Source: a bacterium
GTDB taxonomy: Bacteria; UBA8248
NCBI GenBank assembly: GCA_965203325.1
Contig: OZ241875.1
Span: forward strand, 3,072,001-3,136,000
Length of the DNA stretch: 64,000 nt
Direction: 5' to 3'
Part shown: piece by piece, positions 3,936-35,338 of the stretch
How positions within the stretch are numbered: the stretch's first letter is position 1
Layout of the letters: every line of letters starts with the position of its first letter
Notes under the pieces: generated by a model
Seen by the model: only the letters and a program-made list of their open reading frames with translations
Told to the model about the DNA's origin: nothing
Databases searched by the model: none
Program-made: the position numbers and the translations under genes

Positions 3936-4829
3936 ATGCCACCGATCACGAAAGTAGACGGATACGTTTATTACCCCGGCAGCAAGACGCGCATCGACGC
4001 GATGCGCCCCGCCGATCCGGCCAAAACGCCGTGGACGCCGCTGCCGAAGCCGCTATCCGAGTGCAAGGTCACCCTCGTCTCCACGGCGGGCATCTTCATG
4101 AAAGGAGACGTTTCCTTCGACTACGAGCGCGAGTGGCGCGAGCCGCACTGGGGGGACCCCACCCACCGCGAGATTCCCAGGACGGCCGCCCAGGATGATT
4201 GCGAATACTCGCACCTGCACATCAACACCGAATACCTGGAACGCGACAGGAACGTCTCGTTCCCCGTCGATATCTTCCTGGACTACGAGCGCGAGGGGAA
4301 GATCGGCGCGCTCGCCGACACCCTCTACTCCACGATGGGCTATACGCCCAACTTTCATCCCCTGCTGAAGAAGACGGCCCCCCTGATGGCCGAGAAGATG
4401 CGCGCGGAGGGCGTGGACGCGGCGTTTCTCATCCCCGTCTGACCGCTTTGCATGCGGTCCGTGAGCCTGCTGCAGAGAAGACTGGAAGAGTTGGGAATCG
4501 CCACCGTCTCGATATGCAACCAGCCGGACGTGTCCGAGAAAGTCTGCGTGCCGAGGGCGGTCTTCATCCAGTATCCCTTCGGGCGCATGCTGGGGGACGT
4601 GGGCGACAGAATTGGCCAGCGCGCGGTGTGCGATGACGTGTGCGCGCATCTGGAATCCGCAAATGGCCCGAATGCCTATAAGCATCTATCCCACGAGTGG
4701 CCCGAACCGCCCGAAGAGACCCAGTGGAAGCCGCTCACGCCCGCGCCCATGCACGTGCTTCGCAACAACGGCACGGCGCCCAAGGGCCTCGCGCACTACC
4801 AGGACGACGAGCGGCCCGATTTGAGTTAA
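3936..4829 (+). CDS. PrdB/GrdB-like selenoprotein, 297 aa, Sec169 (TGA 4440-4442, motif UPLC)
   Basis: ORFs 3936-4442 and 4452-4829 are in one frame; read-through gives GVDAAFLIPV-U-PLCMRSVSLLQRRLEELGIATV, matching the PrdB/GrdB UxxC region; N-terminal half has VSTAG..GDPTHREIP..DRNVSFP; hairpin downstream of TGA. Confidence 0.85.
4446..4477 (+). promoter_or_regulatory. Candidate bacterial SECIS hairpin
   Basis: CTTTGCA pairs with TGCAGAG (one G-U); bulged upper stem closes on a CCGTGA apex about 17-22 nt after TGA. Confidence 0.55.
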
Positions 4830-4854
4830 GCGTCTCGGTTCCGGCGCGGATGAA

Positions 4855-5320
4855 ATTGCAGGGACAGGTCGCGACCTGTCCCTGCGGGAATCCTCCCTAC
4901 CCGGTTGGGGTTCACCCGTAGGGACAACCCCCTGTGGTTGTCCTTTGTCAGAGTGTCGGACAGGCACAGGGGCCTGTCCCTACGCCGATTGCGGTTTTGG
5001 CCGTCATTCCGGCGAAAGCCGGAATCCATTTTCGCCTTTGCCTTTTCGCCTCCCTGTTCGGACGTATTCGCTCCCGGGCCGGTAGCATCGGAATCGAACC
5101 CAAAAACGAAAAGCGAATTCTCTGGATTCCTGCATCCGGACGCCGCGCATCAACAAGGTCGTGGCCGCCCTGCCCGGTGAAAAGTCAAAATGGATTCCGG
5201 CTTTCGCCGGAATGACGGCGTTGTGGACGGCCTCGACCCATGCGGGAGGGATTGTGGGTGGCATCGCTTTTACCCCCCTGACAAGGGGGGGTAGGGGGGG
5301 TTGCCTTTATCCCCTGAGGA
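4855..5320. repeat. Cluster of GTAG-type and CGTC-type palindromic (REP-like) repeats
   Basis: GGGACAGGTCGCGACCTGTCCC, GTAGGGACAACC..GGTTGTCC, GGACAGGC..GCCTGTCCCTAC; inverted pair CCGTCATTCCGGCGAAAGCCGGAATCCA at 5001-5028 and 5191-5218. Confidence 0.85.
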
Positions 5321-5359
5321 GGGAGGCTTTTTTTAAGAGCGCGTTATTTCCGAATCATT

Positions 5360-5701
5360 CTAAAACAACCGCCCGCCTAACACCGCGCCCTTCTCATCCG
5401 GCGCGATGAGCACCACCTCGCCCCGCTCATCCGGCACGCCGAGCGTGAGGACTTCGGACATGAAGGGGCCGATCTGCCTCGGCGGGAAGTTCACCACGGC
5501 GAGAACGAGCCTGCCTTCGAGCTCTTCCTTCGTATAGAGCGCTGTGAGCTGGGCGGATGATTTCCTGACCCCCAGTTCCTCGCCGAAATCGATCCAGAGC
5601 TTATAAGCCGGTTTTCGCGCCTCGGGGAAATCCGCCGCCTCGACCACGCGCCCCAAGCGGATGTCCAACTCCTCAAAATCCTCCATCGTCGCCATTTTCA
5701 T
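5360..5701 (-). CDS. csaA: tRNA-binding/export chaperone CsaA
   Basis: FPEARKPAYKLWIDFG, SSAQLT, VNFPPRQIGPFMSEVLTLG. Confidence 0.9.
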   Translation of the reverse strand: MKMATMEDFEELDIRLGRVVEAADFPEARKPAYKLWIDFGEELGVRKSSAQLTALYTKEELEGRLVLAVVNFPPRQIGPFMSEVLTLGVPDERGEVVLIAPDEKGAVLGGRLF

Positions 5702-5782
5702 ACTTCTCCCGTTTCATGGGCCATGCGCGTCCGGCGCGCCGGAATCCGGGGGTGGTTTCCCGCACGGGCGTAGGGGAGCGCT

Positions 5783-6664
5783 TCAGTCTATCGGCTCGCC
5801 CTGCGTTCTTTCCATCTCGAGGATATCGGCGCGCAGCCTTGTCGTTATCGGGCCGGGGGCGGGAATGGATCGCCCGTCCACCTCGGCCACCGCGTGCACC
5901 CGGCTGAAGGATGACGTGAGGAAACACTCATCCGCCGTGTAGAGGTCATATAGCGTCAAGTCGGCTTCTTCCGCCGGAATGCCCTCTTGCTCGGCAATCT
6001 CCATCACGACCTTCCGCGTGATGCCGTCGAGGACGTTGTGGGCTTTCGGTGTCTTGAGCGCGCCGTCCTTCACGACGAATATGTTCTCTCCCGGTGCCTC
6101 CGCCACGAAGCCGCGAATATCGAGCAGAATCGCCTCATCGAAGCCCGATTCGACGGCTTCGATCCTCGCCATCACGTTGTTGAGATAGTTGAGCGATTTC
6201 ACGCGCGCCTCGAAGGATTCGGAAGGCACCTTGCGCACCCCCGCCGTCTTGAGCCTCAAGCCCGCTCCTTTCGCCTTGTAACTCGAACCCGTCTCGGCGG
6301 GCGGGGCGGGGTCGTGTAAGAGCACGGCGAGCGTCGCCTTATCCGTTACCCTCGGGTCGAGCAGGGGATAGCCCGCGCCGCGCGATACCACGACGCGAAG
6401 GTAGACGTCGTCCACGCCGGAGCGACGGACGCATTCCTTGACGATCTCCGCGATTCGCTCGCGCGATTCGGGCAGCGTGAGCTTGAGCGCGCGCGCCGAT
6501 CGCTCCATGCGGTCGAGGTGTTCGGAGAACTTGAATATCCGCCGGTTCGTCACCGTCATGGACTCGAACAGGCCGTCCCCGTAGAGAAACCCGTGGTCGA
6601 AGGCGGAGACTTTGGCCTCTTCTGCGGTGACGTATTCGCCGTTCACATAGCAGGTATAGGACAC
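5783..6664 (-). CDS. Class IV PLP aminotransferase (IlvE-like)
   Basis: DHGFLYGDGLFE, KSLNYLNN, EAPGENIF, LDGITR. Confidence 0.88.
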   Translation of the reverse strand: MSYTCYVNGEYVTAEEAKVSAFDHGFLYGDGLFESMTVTNRRIFKFSEHLDRMERSARALKLTLPESRERIAEIVKECVRRSGVDDVYLRVVVSRGAGYPLLDPRVTDKATLAVLLHDPAPPAETGSSYKAKGAGLRLKTAGVRKVPSESFEARVKSLNYLNNVMARIEAVESGFDEAILLDIRGFVAEAPGENIFVVKDGALKTPKAHNVLDGITRKVVMEIAEQEGIPAEEADLTLYDLYTADECFLTSSFSRVHAVAEVDGRSIPAPGPITTRLRADILEMERTQGEPID

Positions 6665-6667
6665 GCG

Positions 6668-7564
6668 CTATCCATCCCTTCTCAAGGTTTCGAGAATCGC
6701 GTCGGCGAAGGCTTCCGGCTTCTCGCGCTGGGCGAAGTGGCCGGCGCCCTCCACGAGAATCCTTTGATAGCCGCCCGTGAAATGCCCCTCCTTGCCTTCG
6801 GAACTCTCGGGACGCGACGCCCCGTCCTCGGCGCCTTGCACGAGAACCGTCGGCACGGAGATGTCCGGCAGACCCGCCATGAAACTCTCCGCGTCCTCGA
6901 ATTTTGGATCCGGCGTTTCATACCCCCACCGGTAGCGGTAGGAGTGCATGACGATATCCACGAAGTCGGGGTTCTCGAAAGAGCGCGCGGTGGCCTCGTA
7001 TTCCGCGTCCGGGAAATCCCAGCCTGGGGACCATACACGCCAGAGTTCGCGGCAAAAACCCGCGGCGTCCGCCCCCAGCGCATCGCGGCCCCTCTCGGTG
7101 CAGAAAAACCACTGGTACCAGTAGGCGCGCGCCTGATCGACCGACATCCGCTGCTGCGGGCGGCCCGTGCCGTAGCCCGCGGGACTGACGATTAAGGCGT
7201 TCAACCGCGCAGGCCGCATGGCGGCTACGCAATAAGAAGCCCGCGCGCCCCAGTCGTGGCCCACCAGTGTGAAGCGATCGAGTTCCAGCGCGTCGGCGAA
7301 AGCGGTGAGGTCGGACGCCAGCGCCGTGTACTGGGCGCTTCTGGGGGTCTCAGGGTTCAGAAAGCGCGTAGGCCCGTAGCCGCGCACGTAGGGGCAAAGC
7401 GTCCTTAGGCCCGCATCATTCAGGATGGGAGTGACGCGGTCCCACGTTCTCGCGTCGTCCGGGAAGCCGTGGACGAGAACCACGGGCGGCGCGGTTTCAT
7501 CGCCCGCCTCCAGATAGCCGATTTCGAGCGCGGGGGTCGTGATGGATTTGAGCGCGCCGGGCAT
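6668..7564 (-). CDS. Alpha/beta hydrolase (epoxide hydrolase-like)
   Basis: HGFPD, GHDWGA, GAGHF. Confidence 0.85.
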   Translation of the reverse strand: MPGALKSITTPALEIGYLEAGDETAPPVVLVHGFPDDARTWDRVTPILNDAGLRTLCPYVRGYGPTRFLNPETPRSAQYTALASDLTAFADALELDRFTLVGHDWGARASYCVAAMRPARLNALIVSPAGYGTGRPQQRMSVDQARAYWYQWFFCTERGRDALGADAAGFCRELWRVWSPGWDFPDAEYEATARSFENPDFVDIVMHSYRYRWGYETPDPKFEDAESFMAGLPDISVPTVLVQGAEDGASRPESSEGKEGHFTGGYQRILVEGAGHFAQREKPEAFADAILETLRRDG

Positions 7565-7584
7565 ATCGGTTGTTCAGTCCGCGA

Positions 7585-8328
7585 TCAGATCGCGCACCAG
7601 CCGTCGTCGACGATGAGGTCCAGGCCGTGCACCGCGCTCGCATCGTCAGACGCCAGGAACACCGCGGCGCCCGCCATCTCCGCCGTGGTGATGTAGGCCC
7701 GGCCGGTGGGGGTGTAGCTCGCCATGAGCTTCACGAACTCGGGATCGTCCTGTAAGTGCTGGTTGAGCGGCGTGGCCGTGTTGCCCGGCGAGATGCAGTT
7801 CACGTTGATGCCGCACTTCGATATCTCCGCCGCCAGCGCGCGCGTGATCATGTAGACCCCGCCCTTGCTCGCGCAGTAGGGCACCGCGTTGGGAAAGGCG
7901 TGCGTCGCGGCGATGGAGGCCATGAAGATGATCTTCCCGTAGCTCTTCTCCTTCATGATGGGCACGATGGCCTGCGAGAGCAGGAAGTTGCCCTTGAGAT
8001 TAATGTCGATGATGTCGTCCCACTCCTGCTCGGAGTAGGCCTCGAGTTCCTTGTTGATCATGATGCCGTGGTTGCCGACGAGGATGTCCACCGTGCCGAA
8101 CGCGCTCACCACGTCCGCCACCATGGCGTCCACCGCCGACTTCTTCGATACGTCGCACGGAAACGCGCGGGCCGCATCGCCGATCTCGGCGGCGAGCGCC
8201 TCTCCCGTTTCCGCCGTGCGGTTCACGACCGCGACCTTGGCGCCCTCTTCCGCGAAGCGGCGGCAGATGGCCTCGCCGATTCCCTGCGAGCCGCCCGTGA
8301 CGATGGCGACCTTGTCCTTGAGCTTCAT
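7585..8328 (-). CDS. Short-chain dehydrogenase/reductase
   Basis: TGGSQGIG, YCASK, NCISPG. Confidence 0.92.
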   Translation of the reverse strand: MKLKDKVAIVTGGSQGIGEAICRRFAEEGAKVAVVNRTAETGEALAAEIGDAARAFPCDVSKKSAVDAMVADVVSAFGTVDILVGNHGIMINKELEAYSEQEWDDIIDINLKGNFLLSQAIVPIMKEKSYGKIIFMASIAATHAFPNAVPYCASKGGVYMITRALAAEISKCGINVNCISPGNTATPLNQHLQDDPEFVKLMASYTPTGRAYITTAEMAGAAVFLASDDASAVHGLDLIVDDGWCAI

Positions 8329-8456
8329 GGATGTTTCCTCCCTGCGGCGCTCCCGGATCGCCCCGAAAGCGAAAAGTCCCCGGTAAAAGATTCCGTCTCG
8401 ATTTTTGCGGGCATGATACCGCCCTTTGGTTCAAGGGGGAAGGGGGAGTGAGATGT

Positions 8457-8590
8457 GTGTAGGGGGCGCATATATGCGCCCCTTACGGTGACGTTGCAGG
8501 ATTTCGTAGCCGGACAGGCGCAGGAGCCTGTCCGGGGACCCGTGTGTCCGCCCGCTTGATTTGGTAGGGGTCGTTCGCGAACCGCCCTCG
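8457..8590. repeat. GTAG-type REP-like cluster
   Basis: GTAGGGGCGCATATATGCGCCCC; GTAGGGGTCGTTCGCGAACCGCCCT. Confidence 0.75.
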
Positions 8591-8605
8591 CCCTCTGCGC
8601 GGCGG

Positions 8606-8896
8606 CTAAAGATACCGCTCCACATCCATGCTTTGGTGCAGGATTCGGATGATTTCCACCACGCCGGATCCCATGCGGAAAAACATCACGTGCGAGCCCA
8701 CCGCGACCTTGCGGTATCCGGCGCGAATTTCCTCGGCCGAGCGACTGATCATCGTACCTTCGCTCAACGCCTCGCACGCCGCCTGAATGTTGCGCGTGTA
8801 GTCCTCGGCTTGCGCCTCGCCCCAACGCTCGACGGTATAATTCCAGATGCTTTCCAGATCGGCTTGGGCCGCGGGCGACAGCGTATAGCGCCCCAT
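8606..8896 (-). CDS. parE: Type II toxin, ParE/RelE family
   Basis: YTLSPAAQADLESIWNYT..WGEAQA..IIRILHQSMD. Confidence 0.9.
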   Translation of the reverse strand: MGRYTLSPAAQADLESIWNYTVERWGEAQAEDYTRNIQAACEALSEGTMISRSAEEIRAGYRKVAVGSHVMFFRMGSGVVEIIRILHQSMDVERYL

Positions 8897-8901
8897 GCGG
8901 C

Positions 8902-9138
8902 TCAGGTGGATTTCTTGCTAGCGATGAACGCGTCGAAATCAAACGGCGTCGCCCGGCCGGACTCCTCGCCTTCGATGAGCGCCTCGCGCAGGGCTTCCAC
9001 CCTGGCTTCGTGTTCTTCGAGCAGGCGCAGTCCGGCGCGCACCACGTCGCTTGCCGAGTTGTAGCGGCCCGACGCGACCCGTTCGTCGATGAAACCCACG
9101 AAGTGCTCTCCGAGTGAAACCGACGTATTTCTCGGCAT
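8902..9138 (-). CDS. parD: Type II antitoxin ParD (ribbon-helix-helix)
   Basis: NTSVSLG..GRYNSASDVVRAGLRLLE..GEESG; AGGAGG upstream of ATG 9138. Confidence 0.9.
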   Translation of the reverse strand: MPRNTSVSLGEHFVGFIDERVASGRYNSASDVVRAGLRLLEEHEARVEALREALIEGEESGRATPFDFDAFIASKKST

Positions 9139-9241
9139 GATAGTTCCTCCTTCGCACACACTATACCAGAAATTGGTATTCGCGCAAAGGTTTCAGGTGG
9201 CGCGAGGTGGAAGAGGAGCGCGCACGAAGGGGACGCACGAA

Positions 9242-9318
9242 AAGTGGGCGGACACACGGGTCCGCCCCTACGGTGATATTACAGGAATTCGTAGGGGCGG
9301 TTCGCGAACCGCCCCTGT
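9242..9318. repeat. GTAG-type REP-like doublet
   Basis: GGGCGGACACACGGGTCCGCCCCTAC and GTAGGGGCGGTTCGCGAACCGCCCCT. Confidence 0.78.
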
Positions 9319-9336
9319 CATGTCAATCGAATTTCT

Positions 9337-11139
9337 CTACTTGTTACTCAACCGCTTCCGTCTCCGTCTGGTTCTGGCCGCATCCACCTGGCCCTGCTCG
9401 TCGACCGCGACGCCGTAGACCTTCCAGGCGCGCTCCTTGGTGATCCACTTCTCCTCCACGTCCTCGCGCACCTTCTCGACGGGCCGCTCGTGCGGCGGGC
9501 CGTAGCCGCCCCCGCCTGTGCAGTAGGACGCCACGTTCTCGCCGGGTTTGAGGATGATGTCCGCACAGGCGGGCAGGTCTTCCAGAGAGCCGTCCTCACG
9601 CATGAGGAAGTTCTTGCACGCCGCCCCGTTCAGCCCGCCGAGCGTGCCTTTCGAAGCGTTTATCGCGCCGTCGGAGACGTAGACGACCTCGAGATCCCCC
9701 CCGCCCACGGGGCCGTATTCGCAATAGCCAGAAGGCGCGCCTATCGTCCGGCCCGCGCCCTCGGTGTCGGGCATGAGCCGCCTCGTCTTGATGTAGATGG
9801 GGAAGTGGAGCTCGTCCAGTTCGATGCTGTCCACGAAGCACATGCCGGCGTTGCCCGCGTGGAGGATGGTGAGCCAGGCGTCGGTCTTGCCCGCGCCCGC
9901 GCCGCCGGTGACCATTAAAAAGAGGTGGTTCACGAAGGGTTCGTTGTCGTTCCTGGGGTCGAAGCCGGAGATGACGCCCATCGACGCCGGGAAAATCGGC
10001 CCGCATTCCGCCAGGCCGATGCCGTCCTGAATCTTCGAGAACGCGCGCTGCACGGGGTTCGTCACGCGGTCGGCGAGGTTGGTGGTGGCCACGGACATCG
10101 AGGTAGGGTGCTTGCCCCCGCCCGCGACCGAGCCATCGCGGATGAGCACGTTTACGCGCCGGAAGCTGCCCGCGTTCGTGGGCACGATGTCGTCGATGCT
10201 GTTGAACACGCCTATCATCGCGCCCGTGCGCGCGCAGGCCTCGCTCAGGTTCAGGCCGCAGGGCATGGCGTCGGGGTTGTCCCTCAAATCCACCTCGATG
10301 GTGGCCTTTTTGTTATCGATCCGCACGTGCGCGGTGATGGGGATGCCTTCCTCCGGTGTGCCGGGTACGGGGTCGTGCGTGCTGTGGGCCGTGGCCTCGC
10401 CCGTGGGGAGTTTTTTGATGGCGGAGACCATGAGCTTCTCGCTGTAGTCGAACCACTCTTTCGAGAAGTTGTGCAGCGTCTCCCAGCCGTATTCATCCCC
10501 CATGGCGAGCACCTCGCGCTCGCCGATTCTGGCCGCGCCAATCATCGCGAGGTAGTCGCCGTACCACTGCTCGGGCACGCGGATACGCATCCGGCAGAAG
10601 TTGATAAAGTCCTCGTTGTCCTCGTAGTTGGTCTGCACCTTGGTGGGCGGGAAGATGAGCGCGCCTTCTTCGTATACGTCGCGCGCGTGGCCCATGTAGG
10701 TGGTGGGCTGGCTGCACCCGCAATCCGCCTGGTGGGCCTTCACCCACACCGTGAACTGGTGCTCGCCCCGCTTGTCGATGACGGGCACGAGGATGGTGTG
10801 GTCCGCCGGGTGCGAGCAGCCGTGGTAGGGCGAGTTGTGGAGATAGGCGTCGCCGCGCTTGAGGTCGGGATGCAAATCCATCATCGAGCGGGCCATCAGG
10901 TCCGCCCCGCTCAGGTGGTGGATGGGGAGCGATTCCGCGCCGGTCAGGAGTTCGCATTCGCGTGTCACGACGGAAGTCGAAAAATCGCGCGCGAGGTTCA
11001 GCACGCCCGAGCGGCCCGTGCGCAGGAGCGTGTTCGCCATCTTGGTCGTCACGGCGTCGAAGCGCTTGTGCAGCACGGCCAGGGTGATGGGGTCCAGTTT
11101 CGTCTTTCGCTTCGCGCGTCTGGTTGTTGCTCTCGCCAT
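9337..11139 (-). CDS. Hydantoinase B/oxoprolinase family protein
   Basis: HNSPYHGCSHPAD, KAHQAD, EEGALIFP, TGGGGYG. Confidence 0.9.
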   Translation of the reverse strand: MARATTRRAKRKTKLDPITLAVLHKRFDAVTTKMANTLLRTGRSGVLNLARDFSTSVVTRECELLTGAESLPIHHLSGADLMARSMMDLHPDLKRGDAYLHNSPYHGCSHPADHTILVPVIDKRGEHQFTVWVKAHQADCGCSQPTTYMGHARDVYEEGALIFPPTKVQTNYEDNEDFINFCRMRIRVPEQWYGDYLAMIGAARIGEREVLAMGDEYGWETLHNFSKEWFDYSEKLMVSAIKKLPTGEATAHSTHDPVPGTPEEGIPITAHVRIDNKKATIEVDLRDNPDAMPCGLNLSEACARTGAMIGVFNSIDDIVPTNAGSFRRVNVLIRDGSVAGGGKHPTSMSVATTNLADRVTNPVQRAFSKIQDGIGLAECGPIFPASMGVISGFDPRNDNEPFVNHLFLMVTGGAGAGKTDAWLTILHAGNAGMCFVDSIELDELHFPIYIKTRRLMPDTEGAGRTIGAPSGYCEYGPVGGGDLEVVYVSDGAINASKGTLGGLNGAACKNFLMREDGSLEDLPACADIILKPGENVASYCTGGGGYGPPHERPVEKVREDVEEKWITKERAWKVYGVAVDEQGQVDAARTRRRRKRLSNK

Positions 11140-11143
11140 ATCC

Positions 11144-13216: not shown

Positions 13217-13359
13217 TCCTCGCCTCCCGTGCTCATCCGCGCTCTAACCCCTGCGGATGAGGTTTTCGAATCGCTATCTGCCAATGGGTGATGATTTCAG
13301 GCGCAATATATCACTTTCCGGGCGGTGGGATGCAAGGAGGCCGCAGGTGAAAATGCGCG

Positions 13360-25999: not shown

Positions 26000-26034
26000 G
26001 GGCGCGCGCCGCCCGCTTATTTGAGGACCTTCCC

Positions 26035-26835: not shown

Positions 26836-26992
26836 TAAGGGATCAGCCGAGCCGCCTTGCCCGGCTCCCGGAAAGTGCCTGAAGCCGCCGCCTGTTTGAC
26901 AAACGGCTTGGGCTTGAGGCAAGAAAAAACCGGTTTTATCCTCATGACTCATCGAACCGTACGGTCTTGGTATTCGGAAAGCGAGGTGCGCC

Positions 26993-27643: not shown

Positions 27644-27710
27644 GGCCTATCTCCGGGATATTTCCTTGCGGCCGTAATGGAAGTGAAATGCTGAAAAGGC
27701 GTTGATTACA

Positions 27711-28142: not shown

Positions 28143-28252
28143 TGGGTTTTCTTCCCTTTCCGGGCCCTCAATACGCAGGCAAGCTATATTCTGAATGTAT
28201 ATGTGGGGCATAAAGAAAACAATGGTAGCTGCAAGAGGTGGTGCGGTTTTGT

Positions 28253-28441
28253 CCGTCATTCCGGCGAAAGCCGGAATCCATTTGTTTTGTCTTTTGTTTT
28301 TTTATTTTTCTGATTGGTTTCCGCGAATGACGAGGAGATGAAAAGCTGGCGTATTGTCATTCTGCTTGAAAATGGATTCCGGCTTTCGCCGGAATGACGG
28401 TGGTGGTGAATTCCGAGCGAGGAGGGGTTTTTCAACAACCC
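28253..28441. repeat. Inverted CGTC-type REP-like pair plus TTTTTCAACAACCC motif
   Basis: 28-bp unit at 28253-28280, reverse complement at 28373-28400. Confidence 0.88.
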
Positions 28442-28548
28442 TGCATTTGAAGGTATTGTTGCCTTCTTTCCATTCTCCCATCTTTTTCTTTTACAAGATT
28501 CGGTTTATGATAAATTTTTTGGGAAATAACGAGCAGGAGTGATTCGGC

Positions 28549-29643
28549 ATGCCGCAGACGACGCAAACCGTGGATCAGGAAGTCGATTTGGTGGAGTACT
28601 ATTTTGAGGAGGGATTCTCGGACGGGCTTCCCGTCGTCCCGCCCACGCCCGAGAAGATAGACGCCGCCGTCGCGGCCCTGGGCGGAGATAAAGACTACAT
28701 TGAGTGCCGCGTGCCCCCGCGATGGGGTAACCTCACGAGAGAGGTTCTGGCGATCAACATGGTGATGGCGGGGTGTAAGACGGAATACGCGCCCGTGGTC
28801 CGCGCGGCGATGTCGGCGCTTTGCGACCCACACTTCAACCTGAACGGGGTGCAGGCCACCACCCACATGGCGTGCCCGCTCGTCGTGGTGAACGGCCCGG
28901 TTCGCGGCGAGATCGGCATGAACGCGGGCTGCAACGTATTCGGCTCAGGCAACCGCGCGAACGCGACGATAGGCCGCGCGGTGCGGATGATGCTCTTGAA
29001 CGTGGGCGGCGCGTGGCCGGGCGATCTGGACAAGAGCACGCTGGGCTGTCCCACCAAATACACCTACTGCATCGCGGAGAACGAAGAAGCCAGCCCCTGG
29101 GCGCCCTATCACGTGGAACAGGGCTACGCGCCCGAGGATTCCACGGTCTTCGCCATCGCGGCCGAAGCGCCCCACAGCGTGACGAACCACATCTCCGATG
29201 ATCCCGAGGGGGTCCTCGACAGCATCTGCTCGGCGATGAGCACGATCGCGCACAACAATTCGGTGAGCAGCGGCTCGTGCGCCGTCGTCATCAGCCCCGA
29301 GCACGGGGCGACCATCAGTGCGAAAAACTGGACGCGAAACGACGTGAAGAGCTATCTGTGGATGCACACCAGGAACACGTTCGCCGATATCTCGTTCAAC
29401 CACCGCTACGGGAAGGTCTACAACCGCAACATCCCCAAGTGGTACAGGCGCGAGCCGGACGAGAGAATCCCCATCGTTCCCAGTCCCGAGAACATCCACC
29501 TGTTCGTGGCGGGCGGGGATGCGGGCCGTTTTTCCGCCTTCATTCCCGGCTGGGGCCACATGACGAACCCGGTGCTTCGCGCAATCGACGGCAAGACGCT
29601 CGAAGGCGGACCCGTCTGCGTGGACGGCACCTGTCTGCTATAG
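28549..29643 (+). CDS. Conserved hypothetical protein of the type that accompanies UGSC (seleno)proteins
   Basis: SDGLPVVPPT, AINMVMAGC, GNRANATIGRAVR, AENEEASPW; C-terminal CVDGTC. Confidence 0.75.
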   Translation: MPQTTQTVDQEVDLVEYYFEEGFSDGLPVVPPTPEKIDAAVAALGGDKDYIECRVPPRWGNLTREVLAINMVMAGCKTEYAPVVRAAMSALCDPHFNLNGVQATTHMACPLVVVNGPVRGEIGMNAGCNVFGSGNRANATIGRAVRMMLLNVGGAWPGDLDKSTLGCPTKYTYCIAENEEASPWAPYHVEQGYAPEDSTVFAIAAEAPHSVTNHISDDPEGVLDSICSAMSTIAHNNSVSSGSCAVVISPEHGATISAKNWTRNDVKSYLWMHTRNTFADISFNHRYGKVYNRNIPKWYRREPDERIPIVPSPENIHLFVAGGDAGRFSAFIPGWGHMTNPVLRAIDGKTLEGGPVCVDGTCLL

Positions 29644-29669
29644 AGATTTGGAGAAAACGGGAGGAAACC

Positions 29670-30212
29670 ATGAGTGACGTCATCACCGGCCAGGTCGTCT
29701 ACGACCCCCGAGGGGTGGTCGAGGCAGCGGCCCAACCCACCGCGCAGCGCGTCCGGGATTTGAAGGGTCTCAAGCTCGGCGTCCTGGACAACACGAAGTG
29801 GAACGGGCGCAGGCTGCTCGAAAAAACCACGGCGCTGATGGAGGCGGAAGGCCCCTTCGCCGAGGTGCGCTACTACAAGAAAGAGAGCTTTTCCAAGAAC
29901 GCGGCGCCCGAGTTGATCGCGCAAATCGCGGAGGAGAACGACGTCGTCCTGACGGCGATCGGCGACTGAGGCTCCTGCACTTCGTGCTGTATGCACGATG
30001 CGATCTCCCTGGAAGAAAAAGGGGTGCCCACCGCCGTGGTGGTGACGGAGGTCTTCCTGCACGAAGCCCATGTGCAAAGGGCGGCTTTGGGCATGAACGG
30101 CCTCGACCCGGTGGTCATCCAGCACCCCCTGAGCACGCTCTCGGATGAGGAAATCTCCGCGCGCGCGGGCGATGCGGCTCGCCAGGCGGTGAAGATTCTG
30201 CTCGAAGGCTAA
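29670..30212 (+). CDS. UGSC-family selenoprotein, 180 aa, Sec100 (TGA 29967-29969)
   Basis: GGGAGG then ATG 29670; read-through gives VLTAIGD-U-GSCTSCCMHDAISLEEKGVPT, in frame with ORF 29991-30212; hairpin follows. Confidence 0.9.
29976..30002 (+). promoter_or_regulatory. Candidate bacterial SECIS hairpin
   Basis: TGCA-ct-TCGTGC[TGTAT]GCACGA-TGCG; loop starts 19 nt after TGA with G second. Confidence 0.75.
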
Positions 30213-30223
30213 TTCGGCTTTTC

Positions 30224-31456
30224 ATGACGAAGCCATTAGAAGGCATCCGCGTCCTCGACCTGACGCAGTTTCTCTCGGGTCCGCAGGCCACGCTTTTTCT
30301 GGCGGGGATGGGGGCCGAGGTCATCCGAATCGACAATCCGGCCACGGGCGACCCGGTGGCCTATTCTCCTCCCTACATCGGCGAGAAGGGCGTCTCCTAC
30401 CATCCCCAGACAGATGAAGACCTGGGAATGGCTTACTTGAAGCGTACGCGCGCCAAAAAGGCGATTACCTTGAACATCAAGGACCCCCGGGGTCTCGAGA
30501 TGTTCTACGGGCTCGTGGATCAATCCGACATCCTGGTGGAGAATTTCTCCGTCGGCGTCACGAAAAGGCTCAAGATCGACTACGAGACGCTTCACGCGCG
30601 GAAACCCTCCCTGGTCTACTGCTCCATCACGGGCTACGGCCAGACGGGGCCGGATGCGGGCCTCAAGGGCTACGACGCCGTCTCCCAGGCGGCCTCGGGA
30701 CTCATGAACCTCACGGGATTCCCCGACGGCCCGCCCACCAAGGCGGGCTCCGCGCTCGGTGATAGCGTGGGCGGCACGTTCGCCTTCGGTGCCATCATGA
30801 CGGCGCTCTTTCACCGCGAGCGCACCGGGGAGGGCCAGCAGGTCGACATTTCGATGATCGACTGCATCTTTTCCCTGATCTTCGATGAGCCGATGGATTT
30901 TTACGAACAACTGGGCCTCCCGCCGCGCATCGGCAACCGCATCATGCGGCTCGCCCCGTTCAACGCCTATGAGACGAAAGACGGTTGGGTCATCATCGCC
31001 TCGGGCACCAACGCGCATTGGCACAACATACTGCGCGGCATCGAGCGCGCCGATCTGATCGGCGATGAACGATACGAGGACATGAGCCGGCGCGTGAGCA
31101 GAGTCGCGGAGGTTGACGCCATCATCACCGAATGGACGAAGCGCCGCGAGGCGAAAGAAGCGGTCTCCTCCCTGCGCGCGCAAGACGTCATCTGCGGGCC
31201 GGTGAACACCATCGAGGACATCCTCGCCTGGCCCCACATGCAGGAACGCGGGATGATAGTCGACATCGAACACCCCACCCTGGGAACCCTCAAAAGCGCG
31301 AAAGCCCCCGGTTTTCCCTTCAAGTTCAGCGAGATGGAGGGCGGCTACGCTGCCCCCGCCCCGCTCGTGGGCCAGCACAACGCGGAGATCCTCGGCGGTC
31401 TTCTCGGCGTATCGGACGCGGAGTTGAAAGAGCTGGCGGATGAGGGTGTGGTCTAG
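30224..31456 (+). CDS. Family III CoA-transferase (CaiB/BaiF)
   Basis: PLEGIRVLDLTQFLSGP, VENF, ITGYGQTGP, ALGDSVGG, GEGQQVDISM. Confidence 0.92.
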   Translation: MTKPLEGIRVLDLTQFLSGPQATLFLAGMGAEVIRIDNPATGDPVAYSPPYIGEKGVSYHPQTDEDLGMAYLKRTRAKKAITLNIKDPRGLEMFYGLVDQSDILVENFSVGVTKRLKIDYETLHARKPSLVYCSITGYGQTGPDAGLKGYDAVSQAASGLMNLTGFPDGPPTKAGSALGDSVGGTFAFGAIMTALFHRERTGEGQQVDISMIDCIFSLIFDEPMDFYEQLGLPPRIGNRIMRLAPFNAYETKDGWVIIASGTNAHWHNILRGIERADLIGDERYEDMSRRVSRVAEVDAIITEWTKRREAKEAVSSLRAQDVICGPVNTIEDILAWPHMQERGMIVDIEHPTLGTLKSAKAPGFPFKFSEMEGGYAAPAPLVGQHNAEILGGLLGVSDAELKELADEGVV

Positions 31457-31527
31457 GGGGTCGATTCCGAGCGAGAAGCGAGGAATTGCGAACCGATGCG
31501 TTTCTCATCCGCAGCAAACGCTCTTTC

Positions 31528-31916
31528 CCCGGGGTTGTCGAAAAACCTCCCTCTTCGGCGGGGGCATCGCCTTTATCCCCTTGAGGGGGGTTGTTGAAAA
31601 AGCCCCTCGATGTGGGAAAACCACCGTCATTCCGGCGAAAGCCGGAATCCATTATATGATTTTTGTTTTCGTTTTCGCTTTTGACTCCGGCTCGAGGGAA
31701 GGAGCGCCGCGCCCGAATTCGGAACGGATGAGGCGAATTTATATGGCGGCGTCCAAATCTTCCCCGGTCGGGAGAGAGAGCGTCCGGGCGAAAGGCCAAA
31801 GACAAAGCCGAAAATGGATTCCGGCTTTCGCCGGAATGACGAACAAAGGCGAAGGTTAATCTCAATCGAAGCGAGGCTATTTCAGTAAGCCCCTCAAGGG
31901 GTTGTTGAAAAACTCC
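31528..31916. repeat. Composite repeat cluster: CGTC inverted pair and three GGGGTTGT(T/C)GAAAAA motifs
   Basis: CGTC units at 31624-31651 and 31815-31841; motifs near 31531, 31587 and 31897. Confidence 0.85.
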
Positions 31917-32166
31917 GAAAAGAAGAGGTTGACCTGACGGAACAGGCCCGCCGATTCTTGCCTGCGCAAGGCCAGGGCGCGGGGCGTGAACATGGAGTTT
32001 CACCTCTTCGAGGGCCGGGCGCACAACCTCTCGCGCAAGGAGAGGGCGCGGCGGCTGATTCTCGATTTTCTCAGCCGTCACCATAGGGCCGAATAAAGGC
32101 GGCATCGCCCGTACCCCTGTGATAGGATGCTCGATATCGCAAACTTGAAGCTGGAGGCTCATCTTC

Positions 32167-33153
32167 ATGCGGATCTGTACGTTCAGCCTGGCGGGCGAGG
32201 CGCGCATCGGCGTGTTGTTCGGGGAGAAAATCGCCGATCTGAAACTGGCCTGCGCCCTGTCGCTGGATGAGGAAACAGCGGCGGAGGCCATGGATCGCGT
32301 CGAGGCCGAGGTTCCCGATGATTGCGAGGAGTTCATCGAGGATCTGGAACTGAACCGCCCTCTCGCCGAGGAGGCTCTCGAAGCGATCGAGGCGCATTCG
32401 GGCAAAAAAGACCCGATCCGCTTCGACGGGATGCAGGTGGTCTATGAACCCGATGAAGTCGAGATTCTCCCTCCCGTCGTGCCGGACACGCTGTTTTGCA
32501 TGGCGAGGAACTACGTGGCCCATGCCGCCGAGATGGCGCGCACCGAAGTGGATGATTTCAAGGAGGAACTCCCGCTTTATTGTTTCCTGAAGCCCGCCAC
32601 CTGCGTGAGCGGCCCGTATGAGGACGTGCCCGTCTATCCCTCGATGGAAAAGCTCGACTACGAACTCGAACTCGGCGTGCTCATCGGCCAGGGCGGCAAG
32701 AACATTCCGGTGGAAAGGGCCATGGACCACGTGGGCGGCTACACCCTGTTCAACGACATGAGCGACCGCACGAGCCTCAACATGGGCAAGTTCATCGACT
32801 GGTACGCCATGAAGGCCCCGGACGGCTTCGCCCCCATCGGCCCCTATATCCTGCTCCCCGAAGAGGGGCTCGACCCCCACGATTTGAGGCTCAAGCTCTG
32901 GGTGAACGGCGAACTGAGGCAAGACGCCACCACGGGCGACATGGTCTGGCGGGTCGCCGAGCAGGTATCGTATCTCTCGGGGATAGCGACCTTGCGGACG
33001 GGCGACATCATCGGCACCGGCTCTCCTGCCGGCAACGCCGCCTCGTGGGGGGAATATCTCCAGGCGGGCGACCTGATAGAGGGCGAAATCGAGGGTATCG
33101 GGCGCCAGGCTTTTCGAATCAAGAGTGAAAGCCCCGAATATACGCCGGGCTAG
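32167..33153 (+). CDS. Fumarylacetoacetate hydrolase family protein
   Basis: RNYVAHAAE, LDYELELG, NDMSDR, GDIIGTGSPAG. Confidence 0.9.
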   Translation: MRICTFSLAGEARIGVLFGEKIADLKLACALSLDEETAAEAMDRVEAEVPDDCEEFIEDLELNRPLAEEALEAIEAHSGKKDPIRFDGMQVVYEPDEVEILPPVVPDTLFCMARNYVAHAAEMARTEVDDFKEELPLYCFLKPATCVSGPYEDVPVYPSMEKLDYELELGVLIGQGGKNIPVERAMDHVGGYTLFNDMSDRTSLNMGKFIDWYAMKAPDGFAPIGPYILLPEEGLDPHDLRLKLWVNGELRQDATTGDMVWRVAEQVSYLSGIATLRTGDIIGTGSPAGNAASWGEYLQAGDLIEGEIEGIGRQAFRIKSESPEYTPG

Positions 33154-33247
33154 TTCTCCTGGCGGTTGATTCGCATCCGTTTGCGCATTAAGATTTTCGC
33201 ATCGATCAATGGAATTCCGAATCGCTGAAACCCGAGAGGGGACCCTC

Positions 33248-34615
33248 ATGAATCCAGCCATAGCCGAAGCCGAATCCCTGCGGACGATGGACAAGGAACA
33301 CGTCTGGCATCCGCTCATGAACCATTCCGGGATGGAGGAAAATCCCCTCGACGTCGTGGTCAAGGCCAGGGGTTCGACCATCCAGGACGCCTCGGGCAAG
33401 GAATACATCGACGCCATGGCGGGGCTTTGGTGCGTGAACATCGGCTACGGGCGCGACGAGGTGGCCAAGGCGGCCTACGAGCAGATGTTGGAATTGGCCT
33501 ATTACCCGCTGACGCAGGTGAACCCGCCCGCGGCGAGGCTTGGCCAAAGGCTCGCTTCCTTGCTGCCCGAGGGCGTCGAGCGCGTCTGGTTCGTCAATTC
33601 CGGCTCAGAAGCCGTGGACACGGCCATCAAGATCGCCCGCGCCTATGGACGCTTAAACGGCGGGAGGCGATACAAGGTCATCGCCCGCCACCAAGGCTAT
33701 CACGGGGCGACCATCGGAGGCGCCAGCCTCACCGGCCAGACGCTCCGGCGCGCGATGTTCGAGCCGCTGCTCCCGGGCGTGATTCACGTGAGCGCGCCCT
33801 ATTTCTACCGAAGCAACGCGGATACCGAGGAAGAACTCGCCCGCCGGTGCGCGGACGAGTTGGATGAGGTCATCCGCTACGAAGACCCCGAGACCGTGGC
33901 GGCGTTCATCGCGGAGCCCGTCATCGGCGGCGGCGGGGTGATTCCCCCGCCAGCGGATTACCTGAAGCGCATGCGCGAGGTGTGCCGGAACCACGGCGTG
34001 TTGTTCATCGCCGATGAGGTCATCACAGGATTCGGGCGGACGGGGCAGCTCTTCGCCTCGGACCTCTACGAGATCGAGCCGGACATCATGACGATGGCCA
34101 AGGGGCTGAGCAGCGCCTATCTGCCCATCGGGGCGACGGCGACCACGAACGAGATATTCGAGGCCTTAAACGCCGAGGGCGACACCGGGTTCCTGCAGAT
34201 AAACACCTACGGCGGGCACCCCGTCGCCTGCGCGGCGTCGCTCAAGAACCTCGAGATCATGATGGACGAGGAATTGCCCGCGCGCGGCGCCAAGGTGGGC
34301 GCATATCTCGGCGGGCTTTTGGGCAAGCTCTCCGACATCCCCTGCGTGGGCGACGTGCGGGGCGTGGGCCTTATCTGGGGCGTGGAGTTGATAGAAGAGA
34401 GCGGCGCGCCGCTCTCCACGGCGGCCACGGCGAAGGTGCTGGCATACGCGAAGGAGCAAGGCGTGATCTTCGGCAAGAACGCCGGCATCGCGGCGGGCCC
34501 TTCGAACACCGTCACCATCAGCCCGCCGCTGGTCTTGACCGAAGAGGAAGCCGAGCGCGCCGCCTCCGCTCTCGACACCGCCCTGCGCCGCGTTCAGGCG
34601 GAGAGCGGAGCCTGA
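33248..34615 (+). CDS. Class III PLP aminotransferase (omega-amino acid type)
   Basis: DAMAGLWCVNIGYG, SGSEA, YHG, DEVITGFGRTG, AKGLSSAYLP. Confidence 0.92.
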   Translation: MNPAIAEAESLRTMDKEHVWHPLMNHSGMEENPLDVVVKARGSTIQDASGKEYIDAMAGLWCVNIGYGRDEVAKAAYEQMLELAYYPLTQVNPPAARLGQRLASLLPEGVERVWFVNSGSEAVDTAIKIARAYGRLNGGRRYKVIARHQGYHGATIGGASLTGQTLRRAMFEPLLPGVIHVSAPYFYRSNADTEEELARRCADELDEVIRYEDPETVAAFIAEPVIGGGGVIPPPADYLKRMREVCRNHGVLFIADEVITGFGRTGQLFASDLYEIEPDIMTMAKGLSSAYLPIGATATTNEIFEALNAEGDTGFLQINTYGGHPVACAASLKNLEIMMDEELPARGAKVGAYLGGLLGKLSDIPCVGDVRGVGLIWGVELIEESGAPLSTAATAKVLAYAKEQGVIFGKNAGIAAGPSNTVTISPPLVLTEEEAERAASALDTALRRVQAESGA

Positions 34616-34666
34616 TGCGATAGCCGATAATCCGGTCTTATTCGCTATCCTTTTGGGAGATTTCAT

Positions 34667-35338
34667 ATGTCCAACATCACGATGCTCGACATCGAGGATC
34701 TGAAGAAGACGAAGCTGGCGCCGTTCGTGAACAAGGCGCTCAAACACCGCGCGCCCGACCCCGCCTTTCACGCCATGCAGGGCCACAACGAGGATTTGGC
34801 GAAGTCGATGTACCTCGCGTGGGGTACGGTGTTCAACACCGGCGTCATCGACCACAAGCTCAAGGAGATCATCCGCGTTCAGCTCTCGCGCCGCGCCTTT
34901 TGCAACTACTGAGGGAACGTGCGCTCTGCTTCGGCGAAGCAGGCCGGCCTGACGGAAGAGATGATAGACGAGGGCATCGACAACTGGCGCGAGAGTGAGC
35001 TTTTCACCGAAGCCGAAAAACTCGCGCTCGAATACAGCGAACTCATGGATTCGGAACCCGAGAAGATTGACGAGGCCTTCTACGCGAGGCTTCGCGAGCA
35101 CTACTCGGATGAGGAGATCGTGGAACTCGGCTCCTTCATCGGCTTCAACGTGGGCTACCACACCTTTTTCAGGACGCTCGATTTCTACCCCATGTTCACC
35201 CCCGACGGGCGGCTGGTGAGTCAGGAGGAATCGCGCCGCGTCTACGGCGATTGCCCCGTCTCGCACATGAGCGGGCCGCTTGAGCGCGCGCTCGAAGAGG
35301 GCGAGGCGCAACAGGCAGGCGGAAGCCAGGAGGGGTAG
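34667..35338 (+). CDS. AhpD/carboxymuconolactone decarboxylase-like selenoprotein, 223 aa, CxxU (Sec82, TGA 34910-34912)
   Basis: ORFs 34667-34912 and 34919-35338 share a frame; LKEIIRVQLSRRAFCNY-U-GNVR aligns without gaps to the adjacent paralog; perfect hairpin follows. Confidence 0.92.
34926..34942 (+). promoter_or_regulatory. Candidate bacterial SECIS hairpin
   Basis: CTGCTTC[GGC]GAAGCAG, perfect 7-bp stem; G-initiated loop 21 nt after TGA. Confidence 0.75.

What the first reader, a model, noticed from the sequence alone, without database searches (positions are those of the whole stretch)
3936..35338. Three unrelated UGA-recoded genes within 32 kb, each with a SECIS-like hairpin
Seen: in-frame TGAs at 4440, 29967 and 34910, each three codons from a Cys (UPLC, UGSC, CNYU). 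Each is followed by a stem-loop whose apex starts about 17-21 nt downstream with an early G (CCGTGA, TGTAT, GGC). The stems use codons rare in this G/C-ending gene set (CTT, TCT GCT, AGA; ACT and TGT in bulge/loop), suggesting selection on RNA structure. Known: bacterial Sec insertion needs a SECIS just 3' of UGA, typically with a G early in a small apical loop. Inference: three in one window suggests an unusually large selenoproteome that standard gene callers would fragment.
Basis: partly seen in the sequence, partly recalled or inferred. Interest (0 to 1): 0.82.

Follow-up and report, generated by a model that had tools for sequence, protein, structure and literature searches.

The report
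Three known-type selenoprotein genes
Three genes that look broken by a stop codon almost certainly use that codon for the rare amino acid selenocysteine; they belong to protein families already known to do this, in a bacterial lineage already listed among the richest in such genes.

Summary
TGA codons at 4440, 29967 and 34910 lie in frame inside single genes with the motifs UPLC, UGSC and CNYU.

All three genes belong to catalogued selenoprotein families: GrdB/PrdB-like, UGSC and AhpD-like. The closed 4.39 Mb genome carries selA, selB, a Sec-containing selD and tRNA-Sec (anticodon TCA).

The TGA is kept in 30 of 30, 30 of 30 and 29 of 29 orthologues.

They are nevertheless the least synonymously variable stretch of each gene, and they carry compensatory base changes. 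They also fit a hairpin shape found at 42 of 55 Sec sites against 248 of 1500 control sites.

I count at least 55 selenoprotein genes genome-wide, plus a probable 56th. Three within 32 kb is what that density gives by chance.

Public gene calls do hold all six halves as separate proteins.

The lineage is already in print: BSepDB 2026 lists three UBA8248 genomes with 48 to 54 selenoprotein genes in its top ten.

Two of the "unrelated" genes, G1 and G2, are remote homologues.

This scan had already noted UGSC with its partner, PrdB-like genes and a Sec CoA-transferase-like gene on other DNA.

Verdict: correct but ordinary.

The parts
3936..4829 (+). G1: GrdB/PrdB-like selenoprotein gene, 297 aa, U169 in a V-U-P-L-C motif
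   Evidence: Single frame with one TGA. PF07355 scores 42 bits, above its cut-off of 22. TIGR04483 PrdB gives E 1.7e-33 and spans the U, but is below the equivalog cut-off. Three U-aligned paralogues in the genome. TGA kept in 30 of 30 orthologue loci.
4440..4442 (+). Sec codon of G1
4446..4477 (+). SECIS-like hairpin of G1: 12 pairs with two bulges, loop CCGUGA starting 19 nt from the U
   Evidence: Fold. 220 of 252 pair cells kept in 21 unique orthologue sequences, against 76-135 when the 3' partner is slid. Pair 8-35 occurs as U-G, C-G and U-A. The 8-codon window from U+3 is the least synonymously variable of 230 windows. More distant orthologues shift to a GUC or GUG triloop.
2988..3914 (+). 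Upstream neighbour of G1: MDMPI_N / DinB-type (mycothiol maleylpyruvate isomerase-like) protein with an SCP2-like tail
   Evidence: Pfam and NCBIfam. Present next to the orthologue in 22 of 30 loci, all within the same genus.
28549..29643 (+). Unnamed 364-aa partner of the UGSC protein
   Evidence: No Pfam or NCBIfam hit. Upstream of the orthologue in 29 of 30 loci. The genome has 15 copies. One lies within 450 nt of 7 of the 8 UGSC Sec codons, and the eighth has one within 3 kb. One natural UGSC-partner fusion ORF exists.
29670..30212 (+). G2: UGSC-family selenoprotein gene, 180 aa, U100
   Evidence: NF041046 scores 160 bits (cut-off 125). PF24696 scores 198 bits and spans the U. TGA kept in 30 of 30 orthologue loci.
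29967..29969 (+). Sec codon of G2
29976..30002 (+). SECIS-like hairpin of G2: core UCGUGC / GCACGA at 29982-29998, loop UGUAU
   Evidence: Fold. Codons U+5 to U+9 (TCG TGC TGT ATG CAC) are identical in 30 of 30 orthologues at 68-99% protein identity, including the minor codon TGT. 253 of 270 pair cells kept. The 6-codon window ranks 2 of 145.
30224..31456 (+). Family III CoA-transferase, 11 nt downstream of G2
   Evidence: PF02515, 384 bits. Present downstream in 27 of 30 orthologue loci.
34667..35338 (+). G3: AhpD-like (carboxymuconolactone decarboxylase family) selenoprotein gene, 223 aa, C79-x-x-U82
   Evidence: PF02627 scores 29.9 bits (cut-off 23) and spans the U. U82 aligns with the second Cys of CxxC in the solved CMD protein 7xw1. 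13 further CxxU paralogues in the genome. TGA kept in 29 of 29 orthologue loci.
34910..34912 (+). Sec codon of G3
34926..34942 (+). SECIS-like hairpin of G3: 7-bp stem CUGCUUC / GAAGCAG, triloop GGC
   Evidence: Fold. 154 of 154 pair cells kept in 22 unique sequences. Two pairs show compensatory double changes: U-A to C-G in 5 sequences and C-G to U-A in 1. The 6-codon window ranks 1 of 210.
35341..35946 (+). Tandem paralogue of G3 without the CxxU motif
   Evidence: 36% identical to G3 (E 1e-43). D..F stands where G3 has C..U. Present downstream in 29 of 29 orthologue loci.

Best explanation
The three TGAs are selenocysteine codons in three intact genes. Each mRNA forms a small hairpin inside the coding sequence, with its apical loop starting 19-23 nt from the U of UGA. 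By the established bacterial mechanism, SelB carrying Sec-tRNA(Sec) binds such a hairpin and delivers selenocysteine to the ribosome in place of termination.

The products are redox proteins with a selenol-thiol pair:
- a PrdB/GrdB-like protein (UxxC);
- a UGSC-family protein (UxxC), which most likely works with, or as a subunit of, the unnamed 364-aa protein encoded just upstream;
- an AhpD-like protein (CxxU), paired with an inactive-looking paralogue.

Shown here: frames, family membership, machinery, conservation of the TGA and the hairpin, and gene neighbourhood. Inferred: actual Sec insertion, SelB binding, the redox chemistry and the partnerships.

The window is an ordinary sample of a genome that uses Sec in at least 55 genes.
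For: Machinery in the same single-contig genome:
- selA 571 bits, selB 393 bits, and selD 333 bits with its own in-frame TGA (GGUGSK).
- tRNA-Sec 75.9 bits with anticodon TCA.

Family models span the TGA.

The TGA is kept in 30 of 30, 30 of 30 and 29 of 29 orthologue loci, down to 43-68% protein identity.

Synonymous diversity in the six codons U+5 to U+10 ranks 3 of 262, 2 of 145 and 1 of 210 windows in the three genes.

Stem pairs are kept in 87%, 94% and 100% of cells, against 12-68% with slid partners. G3 and G1 show compensatory changes.

Across the genome, a hairpin with at least 6 bp, a loop of 3-8 nt with G among its first three bases, and a loop start 15-26 nt from the U occurs at 42 of 55 Sec sites. 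It occurs at 248 of 1500 in-frame Cys codons (Fisher p 2.7e-21).

TGA is otherwise the commonest ordinary stop. It ends 1005 of 2234 confident long ORFs, and coding potential falls after it as it does after TAA and TAG.

U82 of G3 aligns with a catalytic-motif Cys of solved AhpD/CMD proteins.
Against: - Raw folding energy of TGA plus 42-54 nt is no better than synonymous recodings (z -0.86 to +0.23). Stability alone therefore gives no support.
- The minimum-energy loop of G1 (CCGUGA) has its first G only at the third position.
- The hairpin criteria and the window were fixed after I had seen the three sites.
- G1 and G3 fall below the curated cut-offs of the selenoprotein-specific NCBIfam models: TIGR04483 116 of 300, TIGR01918 52.5 of 65.45, NF053654 71 of 310.
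- The Rfam gathering scan of the window found only rRNA and tRNA.
- There are no selenium-labelling or peptide data.
- Orthologues are mostly from one genus and are not independent.
Confidence: 0.95

Rival explanations
1. The TGAs are nonsense mutations or sequencing errors, and the genes are pseudogenes.
For: Each gene is called as two pieces in public records. Elsewhere in the genome some Pfam domains are interrupted by a TGA with no paralogue support and may be pseudogenes: HSDR_N, SOUL with two TGAs, and an IS3 integrase.
Against: The same TGA is kept in 30 of 30, 30 of 30 and 29 of 29 orthologue loci from about 30 genomes. The flanks are under purifying selection and there are no further stops or frameshifts. 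Coding potential is high on both sides.
Confidence: 0.01
2. Each locus is two separate adjacent genes in the same frame, and the TGA is a true stop.
For: About 190 of the 249 TGA sites with coding potential on both sides are of this kind. They show two different Pfam domains, one on each side.
Against: Here a single family model runs across the TGA. The TGA sits at the family's known Sec/Cys position (UGSC, UxxC, CxxU). No start codon with a ribosome-binding site is needed to explain the downstream half.
Confidence: 0.01
3. The UGA is read through as another amino acid (Trp, Cys or Gly), by a reassigned code or by a near-cognate tRNA, without selenium.
For: No tool here can show which residue is inserted. 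Low-level Cys or Trp insertion at Sec codons is known under selenium limitation (recalled, not from a call).
Against: TGA ends 45% of confident long ORFs, so there is no genome-wide reassignment. The complete Sec pathway is present. In-frame TGAs are confined to positions where homologues have Cys and are followed by a conserved hairpin.
Confidence: 0.03

Closest known systems
UGSC-containing / UGSC family (seleno)protein (NCBIfam NF041046, Pfam PF24696). It is one of the major families of the Global Ocean Sampling selenoproteome (PMC2398784, passages read).
   Same: G2 scores above both curated cut-offs, has the U-G-S-C motif and is of typical length. As in that paper's note of a fusion to a domain 'Unknown_1', one paralogue here is fused to the 364-aa partner type.
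   Different: Nothing that sets it apart from the family. The function of the family is unknown. The remote homology of its Sec region to GrdB/PrdB is not in the passages I read, where a Trx-like fold is suggested.
D-proline reductase PrdB and glycine reductase GrdB (TIGR04483, PF07355). 'Proline reductase PrdB' is a major marine selenoprotein family in PMC2398784.
   Same: UxxC motif at the aligned position. PF07355 is above its cut-off. The best NCBIfam hit is PrdB (E 1.7e-33).
   Different: G1 is below the PrdB and selenoprotein-B cut-offs (116 of 300, 52.5 of 65.45). No PrdA or PrdC-type neighbour was seen: the upstream gene is MDMPI/DinB-like and the downstream genes lie on the other strand. 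A true GrdA-GrdB cluster lies elsewhere in the genome (proteins 20-22). So G1 is PrdB-like, not PrdB.
AhpD-like selenoproteins (CxxU; COG2128 / PF02627), first listed from the Sargasso Sea and GOS data (PMC1088965, PMC2398784, passages read). Solved Cys relatives include PA0269/7xw1, AhpD 6k40 and the debrominase Bmp8 6ohi.
   Same: CMD domain above its cut-off. CxxU aligns with the CxxC of solved members.
   Different: G3 is below the cut-offs of NF053654 (YciW-related selenoprotein) and TIGR01926. It always sits in tandem with a paralogue that lacks both redox residues. The genome holds 14 CxxU copies.
Sec-rich bacterial genomes in BSepDB Table 2 (PMC13326102). Three UBA8248-lineage genomes labelled Nitrospinota/Nitrospinaceae hold 54, 50 and 48 selenoprotein genes. 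The top entry holds 63.
   Same: Relatives of this genome carry Nitrospinota/Nitrospinaceae titles, and one of them is the 54-gene entry's contig set (L251). My count of at least 55 falls in the same range.
   Different: This genome is a single 4.39 Mb contig, so co-assembly of strains is less of a worry. My count uses a different, home-made method and is a lower bound.

Membership tests
Bacterial selenoprotein gene (SelB/SECIS-dependent UGA recoding) | In-frame UGA inside one conserved coding frame, kept in orthologues | tested here: met
   TGA kept in 30 of 30, 30 of 30 and 29 of 29 loci.
Bacterial selenoprotein gene (SelB/SECIS-dependent UGA recoding) | Homologues with Cys at the UGA position | tested here: met
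   G3: Cys in solved CMD proteins. For G1 and G2 every relative examined here had TGA. Cys forms of both families are reported in PMC2398784 (110 and 21 Cys homologues, table passage read).
Bacterial selenoprotein gene (SelB/SECIS-dependent UGA recoding) | Stem-loop just 3' of UGA with a small apical loop containing G (feature as worded in PMC1088965) | tested here: met
   Not distinguished by raw energy.
Bacterial selenoprotein gene (SelB/SECIS-dependent UGA recoding) | selA, selB, selD and tRNA-Sec in the genome | tested here: met
   All are above the curated cut-offs.
Bacterial selenoprotein gene (SelB/SECIS-dependent UGA recoding) | Selenium actually present in the protein | not testable with these tools
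   Needs labelling or mass spectrometry.
UGSC family (NF041046 / PF24696) | Score above the curated cut-off, and the U/C-G-S-C motif | tested here: met
   160 bits against 125, and 198 bits against 25. Motif seen.
D-proline reductase PrdB (TIGR04483 equivalog) | Score above the equivalog cut-off | tested here: not met
   116 bits against 300. Also TIGR01918, 52.5 against 65.45.
D-proline reductase PrdB (TIGR04483 equivalog) | Proline-reductase partner genes nearby | tested here: not met
   No such Pfam family among the seven flanking genes scanned. PrdA and PrdC models were not searched genome-wide.
GRDB superfamily (PF07355) | Domain above the gathering score, with UxxC at its C-terminal end | tested here: met
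   42 bits against 22.
AhpD-like / CMD (PF02627) | Domain above the gathering score, with CxxC/U in the conserved helix | tested here: met
   29.9 bits against 23. Alignment.
YciW-related (seleno)protein NF053654 | Score above the equivalog cut-off | tested here: not met
   71 bits against 310.

The most novel reading that the evidence does not exclude
This closed genome holds one of the five or so largest bacterial selenoproteomes yet counted, at least 56 genes. It includes Sec forms of families that I could not find in the catalogues I could read.

- A family I CoA-transferase alpha-subunit-like protein (genome C1:3929687-3930451, minus strand). Its TGA is kept in 23 of 23 orthologues, a paralogue has Cys at that position, and 23 nt downstream are invariant and able to form an 8-bp stem with a GGC triloop.
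- Two DUF442 proteins.

In addition, the UGSC protein would be the selenium-bearing part of a two-part enzyme with the unnamed 364-aa partner, and its Sec domain would be homologous to that of GrdB/PrdB.
Probability: 0.5. Interest if true: 0.55.

Novelty: new member of a known kind. Interest (0 to 1): 0.3.

Why it matters
For annotation. At least 55 genes of this genome, and the same genes in its relatives, are cut in two or truncated in public protein sets. The active-site halves of a large set of redox enzymes are therefore missing from any functional reading of this lineage.

For biology. The count confirms on a closed chromosome that a Nitrospinota-labelled (UBA8248) lineage rivals the Sec-rich sulfate reducers. 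Its content looks heterotrophic: many luciferase-like monooxygenases, CoA-transferases and acyl-CoA dehydrogenases. Its Sec set is almost wholly thiol-oxidoreductase-like, with no Sec formate dehydrogenase.

The three window genes themselves add nothing new in kind.

Tried and rejected
- **Raw MFE against synonymous-codon recodings.** No signal. I dropped it as a discriminator and replaced it with comparative tests.
- **A start-codon and Shine-Dalgarno filter to thin the 249 candidates.** It threw out G2 and G3, so I abandoned it and scanned all 249 against Pfam.
- **The window as a selenoprotein island.** Rejected. There are 3 triples of Sec sites within 31.4 kb, against 3.3 expected for 56 random sites.
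- **Genetic-code reassignment.** Rejected.
- **Sec formate dehydrogenase.** None of the 9 molybdopterin-domain matches carries a stop.
- **SelW-like family search.** It failed because the accession is not in the library, so that family was not tested.
- **Rfam at gathering thresholds.** Only rRNA and tRNA in the window.
- **PDB by sequence.** Nothing usable for G1 or G2.
- **Second in-frame TGA in the PrdB-like paralogue at genome 2499214.** I read it as the true stop, because the homologous position is near the C-terminus of G1. However, many relatives show '2 TGA' inside the match, so this stays open.
- **One Pfam call.** It failed on a mistyped frame and was not repeated.
- **Structure prediction and complex prediction.** Not run.
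- **BSepDB's list of its 111 families.** It was not visible. The held supplement is a species table, cut when stored. I therefore cannot say whether the CoA-transferase-like or DUF442 forms are in that database.
Full report
**What is in the sequence**

The three TGAs are at 4440, 29967 and 34910, as stated. With TGA read through, each lies inside one open frame:
- G1, 3936-4829, 297 aa...FLIPV-U-PLCMR....
- G2, 29670-30212, 180 aa...TAIGD-U-GSCTS....
- G3, 34667-35338, 223 aa...AFCNY-U-GNVRS....

**What the genes are**

G2 is a full member of the UGSC family: NF041046 160 bits against a cut-off of 125, and PF24696 198 bits.

G1 carries the GRDB domain (PF07355, 42 bits against 22). Its best match is D-proline reductase PrdB (TIGR04483, E 1.7e-33, spanning the U). 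That match is far below the equivalog cut-off, so G1 is PrdB-like, not PrdB.

G3 is a carboxymuconolactone-decarboxylase/AhpD-type protein (PF02627, 29.9 bits against 23). It is below the cut-offs of the more specific (seleno)protein models. Its C79-x-x-U82 aligns with the CxxC of solved family members.

All three families have been listed as selenoprotein families for years. 'AhpD-like', 'UGSC-containing' and 'Proline reductase PrdB' are among the major families of the Global Ocean Sampling selenoproteome (PMC2398784, table and text passages read). They also appear in the 2026 review table (PMC13188914, passages read).

**The machinery**

The window lies in a single-contig genome of 4,392,711 bases (completeness 95.5%). 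It has:
- selA, 571 bits;
- selB, 393 bits, about 1 kb downstream of selA;
- selD, 333 bits, itself with an in-frame TGA in GGUGSK;
- a tRNA-Sec, 75.9 bits, with anticodon TCA.

TGA is otherwise the commonest ordinary stop. It ends 1005 of 2234 confident long ORFs, and coding potential falls after it as it does after TAA and TAG. The code is therefore not reassigned.

**The hairpins**

Against 1000 synonymous recodings drawn from this genome's codon usage, the minimum free energy gives z between -0.86 and +0.23. In a 62% G+C genome almost any coding stretch folds this well.

The comparative evidence is what marks the hairpins. I fetched 30, 30 and 29 orthologue loci from related genomes. Most are from the same genus, and some reach down to 43-68% protein identity.

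- The TGA is kept in every one.
- The six codons U+5 to U+10, which hold the hairpin cores, are among the least synonymously variable windows of each gene: rank 3 of 262, 2 of 145 and 1 of 210.
- In G2, TCG TGC TGT ATG CAC is identical in 30 of 30, including the minor codon TGT.
- In G3, GCT is identical in 29 of 29.
- Stem pairs hold in 220 of 252, 253 of 270 and 154 of 154 cells. With the 3' partner slid by 1-3 columns the figure is 12-68%.
- G3 has two compensatory double changes: U-A to C-G in five unique sequences and C-G to U-A in one.
- Pair 8-35 of G1 occurs as U-G, C-G and U-A.

Two caveats apply. The window and the structures were chosen after I had seen the data, and the orthologues are kin.

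**The genome-wide count**

I scored every in-frame TGA by dicodon coding potential on both sides. This gave 249 candidates, including all three window genes. I translated 150 residues on each side of each and scanned all 249 against Pfam.

- 37 have a domain running across the TGA.
- 7 more align U to U with those in all-against-all BLAST. Together these make 44.
- Searching read-through frames with these 44 added 7 paralogues that the first scan had missed.
- Family searches added SelD, an ArsC-like protein and two glutaredoxins, each with UxxC or the SelD motif.

Total, as a lower bound: 55.

| Family | Genes |
|---|---|
| AhpD-like | 14 |
| UGSC | 8 (also counted as 8 matches) |
| OsmC-like | 5 |
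| DsbA-like | 5 |
| GrdB/PrdB-like | 4 |
| AhpC/Prx-like | 4 |
| Deiodinase-like | 3 |
| Rhodanese | 2 |
| DUF442 | 2 |
| Glutaredoxin | 2 |
| GrdA, DUF3179, thioredoxin, DsrE, ArsC, SelD | 1 each |

About 190 candidates were ordinary same-frame neighbours. Four are ambiguous: HSDR_N, a SOUL gene with two TGAs, an IS3 integrase, and the CoA-transferase-like gene described below.

No molybdopterin enzyme carries a stop (0 of 9 matches). SelW-like proteins could not be searched.

Across the 55 sites, 42 have a hairpin with at least 6 bp, a 3-8 nt loop with G among its first three bases, and a loop start 15-26 nt from the U. Among in-frame Cys codons of confident genes, 248 of 1500 do (p 2.7e-21). 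Mean energy differs only modestly: -15.4 against -13.6 kcal/mol, p 0.003. Typical loops are GUA, GUG, GGUC, GGC and GGG at +19 to +24. The three window sites fit this house style.

**Is the window special?**

No. With 56 sites on 4.39 Mb, triples within 31.4 kb are expected 3.3 times by chance, and 3 are seen. There is no island.

**Is the size news?**

No. Relatives' records are titled Nitrospinota or Nitrospinaceae metagenome-assembled genomes, with Tectomicrobia next.

BSepDB (PMC13326102, abstract and 'Content' passages including Table 2 read) lists three genomes of GTDB lineage UBA8248 in its top ten, with 54, 50 and 48 selenoprotein genes. One of them is among the relatives found. The top entry has 63.

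The 2026 review gives 57 and 63 as the earlier and the current records.

My count of at least 55 on a closed chromosome fits that picture and adds a cleaner genome.

**Fragmentation**

All six halves (N- and C-terminal pieces of the three genes) exist as separately called proteins in public collections. Their names include 'hypothetical protein [Nitrospinota bacterium]' and a 168-aa 'selenoprotein B family protein'.

**Relationships and context**

G1 and G2 are not unrelated. Profiles built from their orthologues and paralogues align over 108 columns with probability 87.6% and E 3.5e-6, U on U, followed by a shared LE..G(I/V)(A/P)T stretch. G3 aligns with neither, at probability below 3%.

G2 sits 26 nt behind an unnamed 364-aa gene with no Pfam or NCBIfam match. 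It sits 11 nt ahead of a family III CoA-transferase.
- The partner is upstream in 29 of 30 orthologue loci, and the transferase is downstream in 27 of 30.
- The genome has 15 partner copies. One lies within 450 nt of 7 of the 8 UGSC Sec codons, and the eighth has one within 3 kb.
- One locus is a natural UGSC-partner fusion in a single frame.

It also matches the 'Unknown_1' fusion mentioned in PMC2398784.

G3 is followed, in 29 of 29 loci, by a 36%-identical paralogue that has D and F where G3 has C and U. This suggests a mixed assembly with one redox-active subunit.

G1 follows an MDMPI/DinB-type gene, but only within the genus (22 of 30 loci).

**A lead outside the window**

A family I CoA-transferase alpha-subunit-like gene (genome 3929687-3930451, minus strand, with a beta-like gene next to it) has an in-frame TGA in ...LTEHA-U-ASVLAGLRA...
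- The TGA is kept in 23 of 23 orthologues at 70% identity or more, while more distant homologues have no stop.
- A 48%-identical paralogue in the same genome has Cys there.
- In 12 of 12 loci, nucleotides 18-40 after the TGA are invariant, synonymous sites included. They can form an 8-bp stem with a GGC triloop at +26.

I found no CoA-transferase, PF01144 or DUF442 term in the 2026 review or in the deep-Sep paper. None of the 15 listed titles in a full-text search (48 papers held the terms) describes one. BSepDB's family list was not visible to me.

This scan has noted the same kind of gene in other genomes (e1-6442844, e1-2132436, e1-1250186, e1-4656320).

**Verdict**

But the three genes are new members of long-known selenoprotein families, in a lineage already published as Sec-rich. 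The finding is correct and well read, useful for annotation, and of low surprise to a specialist.

Noticed in passing
Genome C1:3929687-3930451 (minus strand), outside the window; locus L318:1432-2256: Family I CoA-transferase alpha-subunit-like gene with an in-frame TGA (EHA-U-AS). The TGA is kept in 23 of 23 orthologues, a paralogue has Cys there, and an invariant downstream hairpin is present. I did not find it in the selenoprotein catalogues I could read. This scan has seen the same kind of gene before in other genomes.
   Followed up: partly
Genome C1 around 2370730; locus L090:1-1800: A natural fusion, in one reading frame, of a UGSC selenoprotein domain with the unnamed 360-aa partner domain. 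A tandem array of four partner paralogues lies at genome 2772668-2776774.
   Followed up: partly
Window 35341-35946: Tandem paralogue of the AhpD-like selenoprotein, 36% identical, that lacks both the Cys and the Sec of the CxxU motif. It is conserved next to it in 29 of 29 loci.
   Followed up: partly
Genome C1: 1376791 (HSDR_N), 2436964 and 2437063 (SOUL, two TGAs), 3852765 (IS3 integrase, TGA at the position of a conserved Cys): Pfam domains interrupted by in-frame TGAs with no paralogue support and weak or no SECIS-like hairpin. They could be pseudogenes or further Sec genes.
   Followed up: no
Genome C1: 522636-525894 (locus L034): A glycine reductase cluster. GrdB (Sec) and GrdA (Sec, CFVU motif) lie with a GrdE-type component B gene between them, in a genome otherwise rich in oxygen-dependent monooxygenase families.
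   Followed up: no
Genome C1: 3187109, 3967837, 4201869: Three iodothyronine-deiodinase-like selenoproteins (PF00837, motif ITUPP[FY]RR). Among the solved relatives of the 14 AhpD-like selenoproteins is the debrominase Bmp8. A role in reductive dehalogenation is conceivable but untested.
   Followed up: no
Window 43719-49211: Complete rRNA operon: 16S, tRNA-Ile(GAT), tRNA-Ala(TGC), 23S, 5S.
   Followed up: yes
Window 55991-59428: A 1145-aa ORF with Cadherin-like and Calx-beta domains, in a stretch whose G+C rises to 0.75-0.78 against about 0.62 for the window.
   Followed up: partly
Genome C1 near 4249.8 kb (locus L144:11913-12602): A regularly repeated unit that translates as ILADRCLPAIHN with variable spacers. 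It looks like a CRISPR array.
   Followed up: no
Genome C1: 981268/4238058, 983095/1836281, 1839996/3844346, 985988/3339629: Pairs of segments 94-97% identical, carrying SSB, relaxase and restriction-type genes. They are probably duplicated mobile elements. Their TGAs were not counted as Sec.
   Followed up: no
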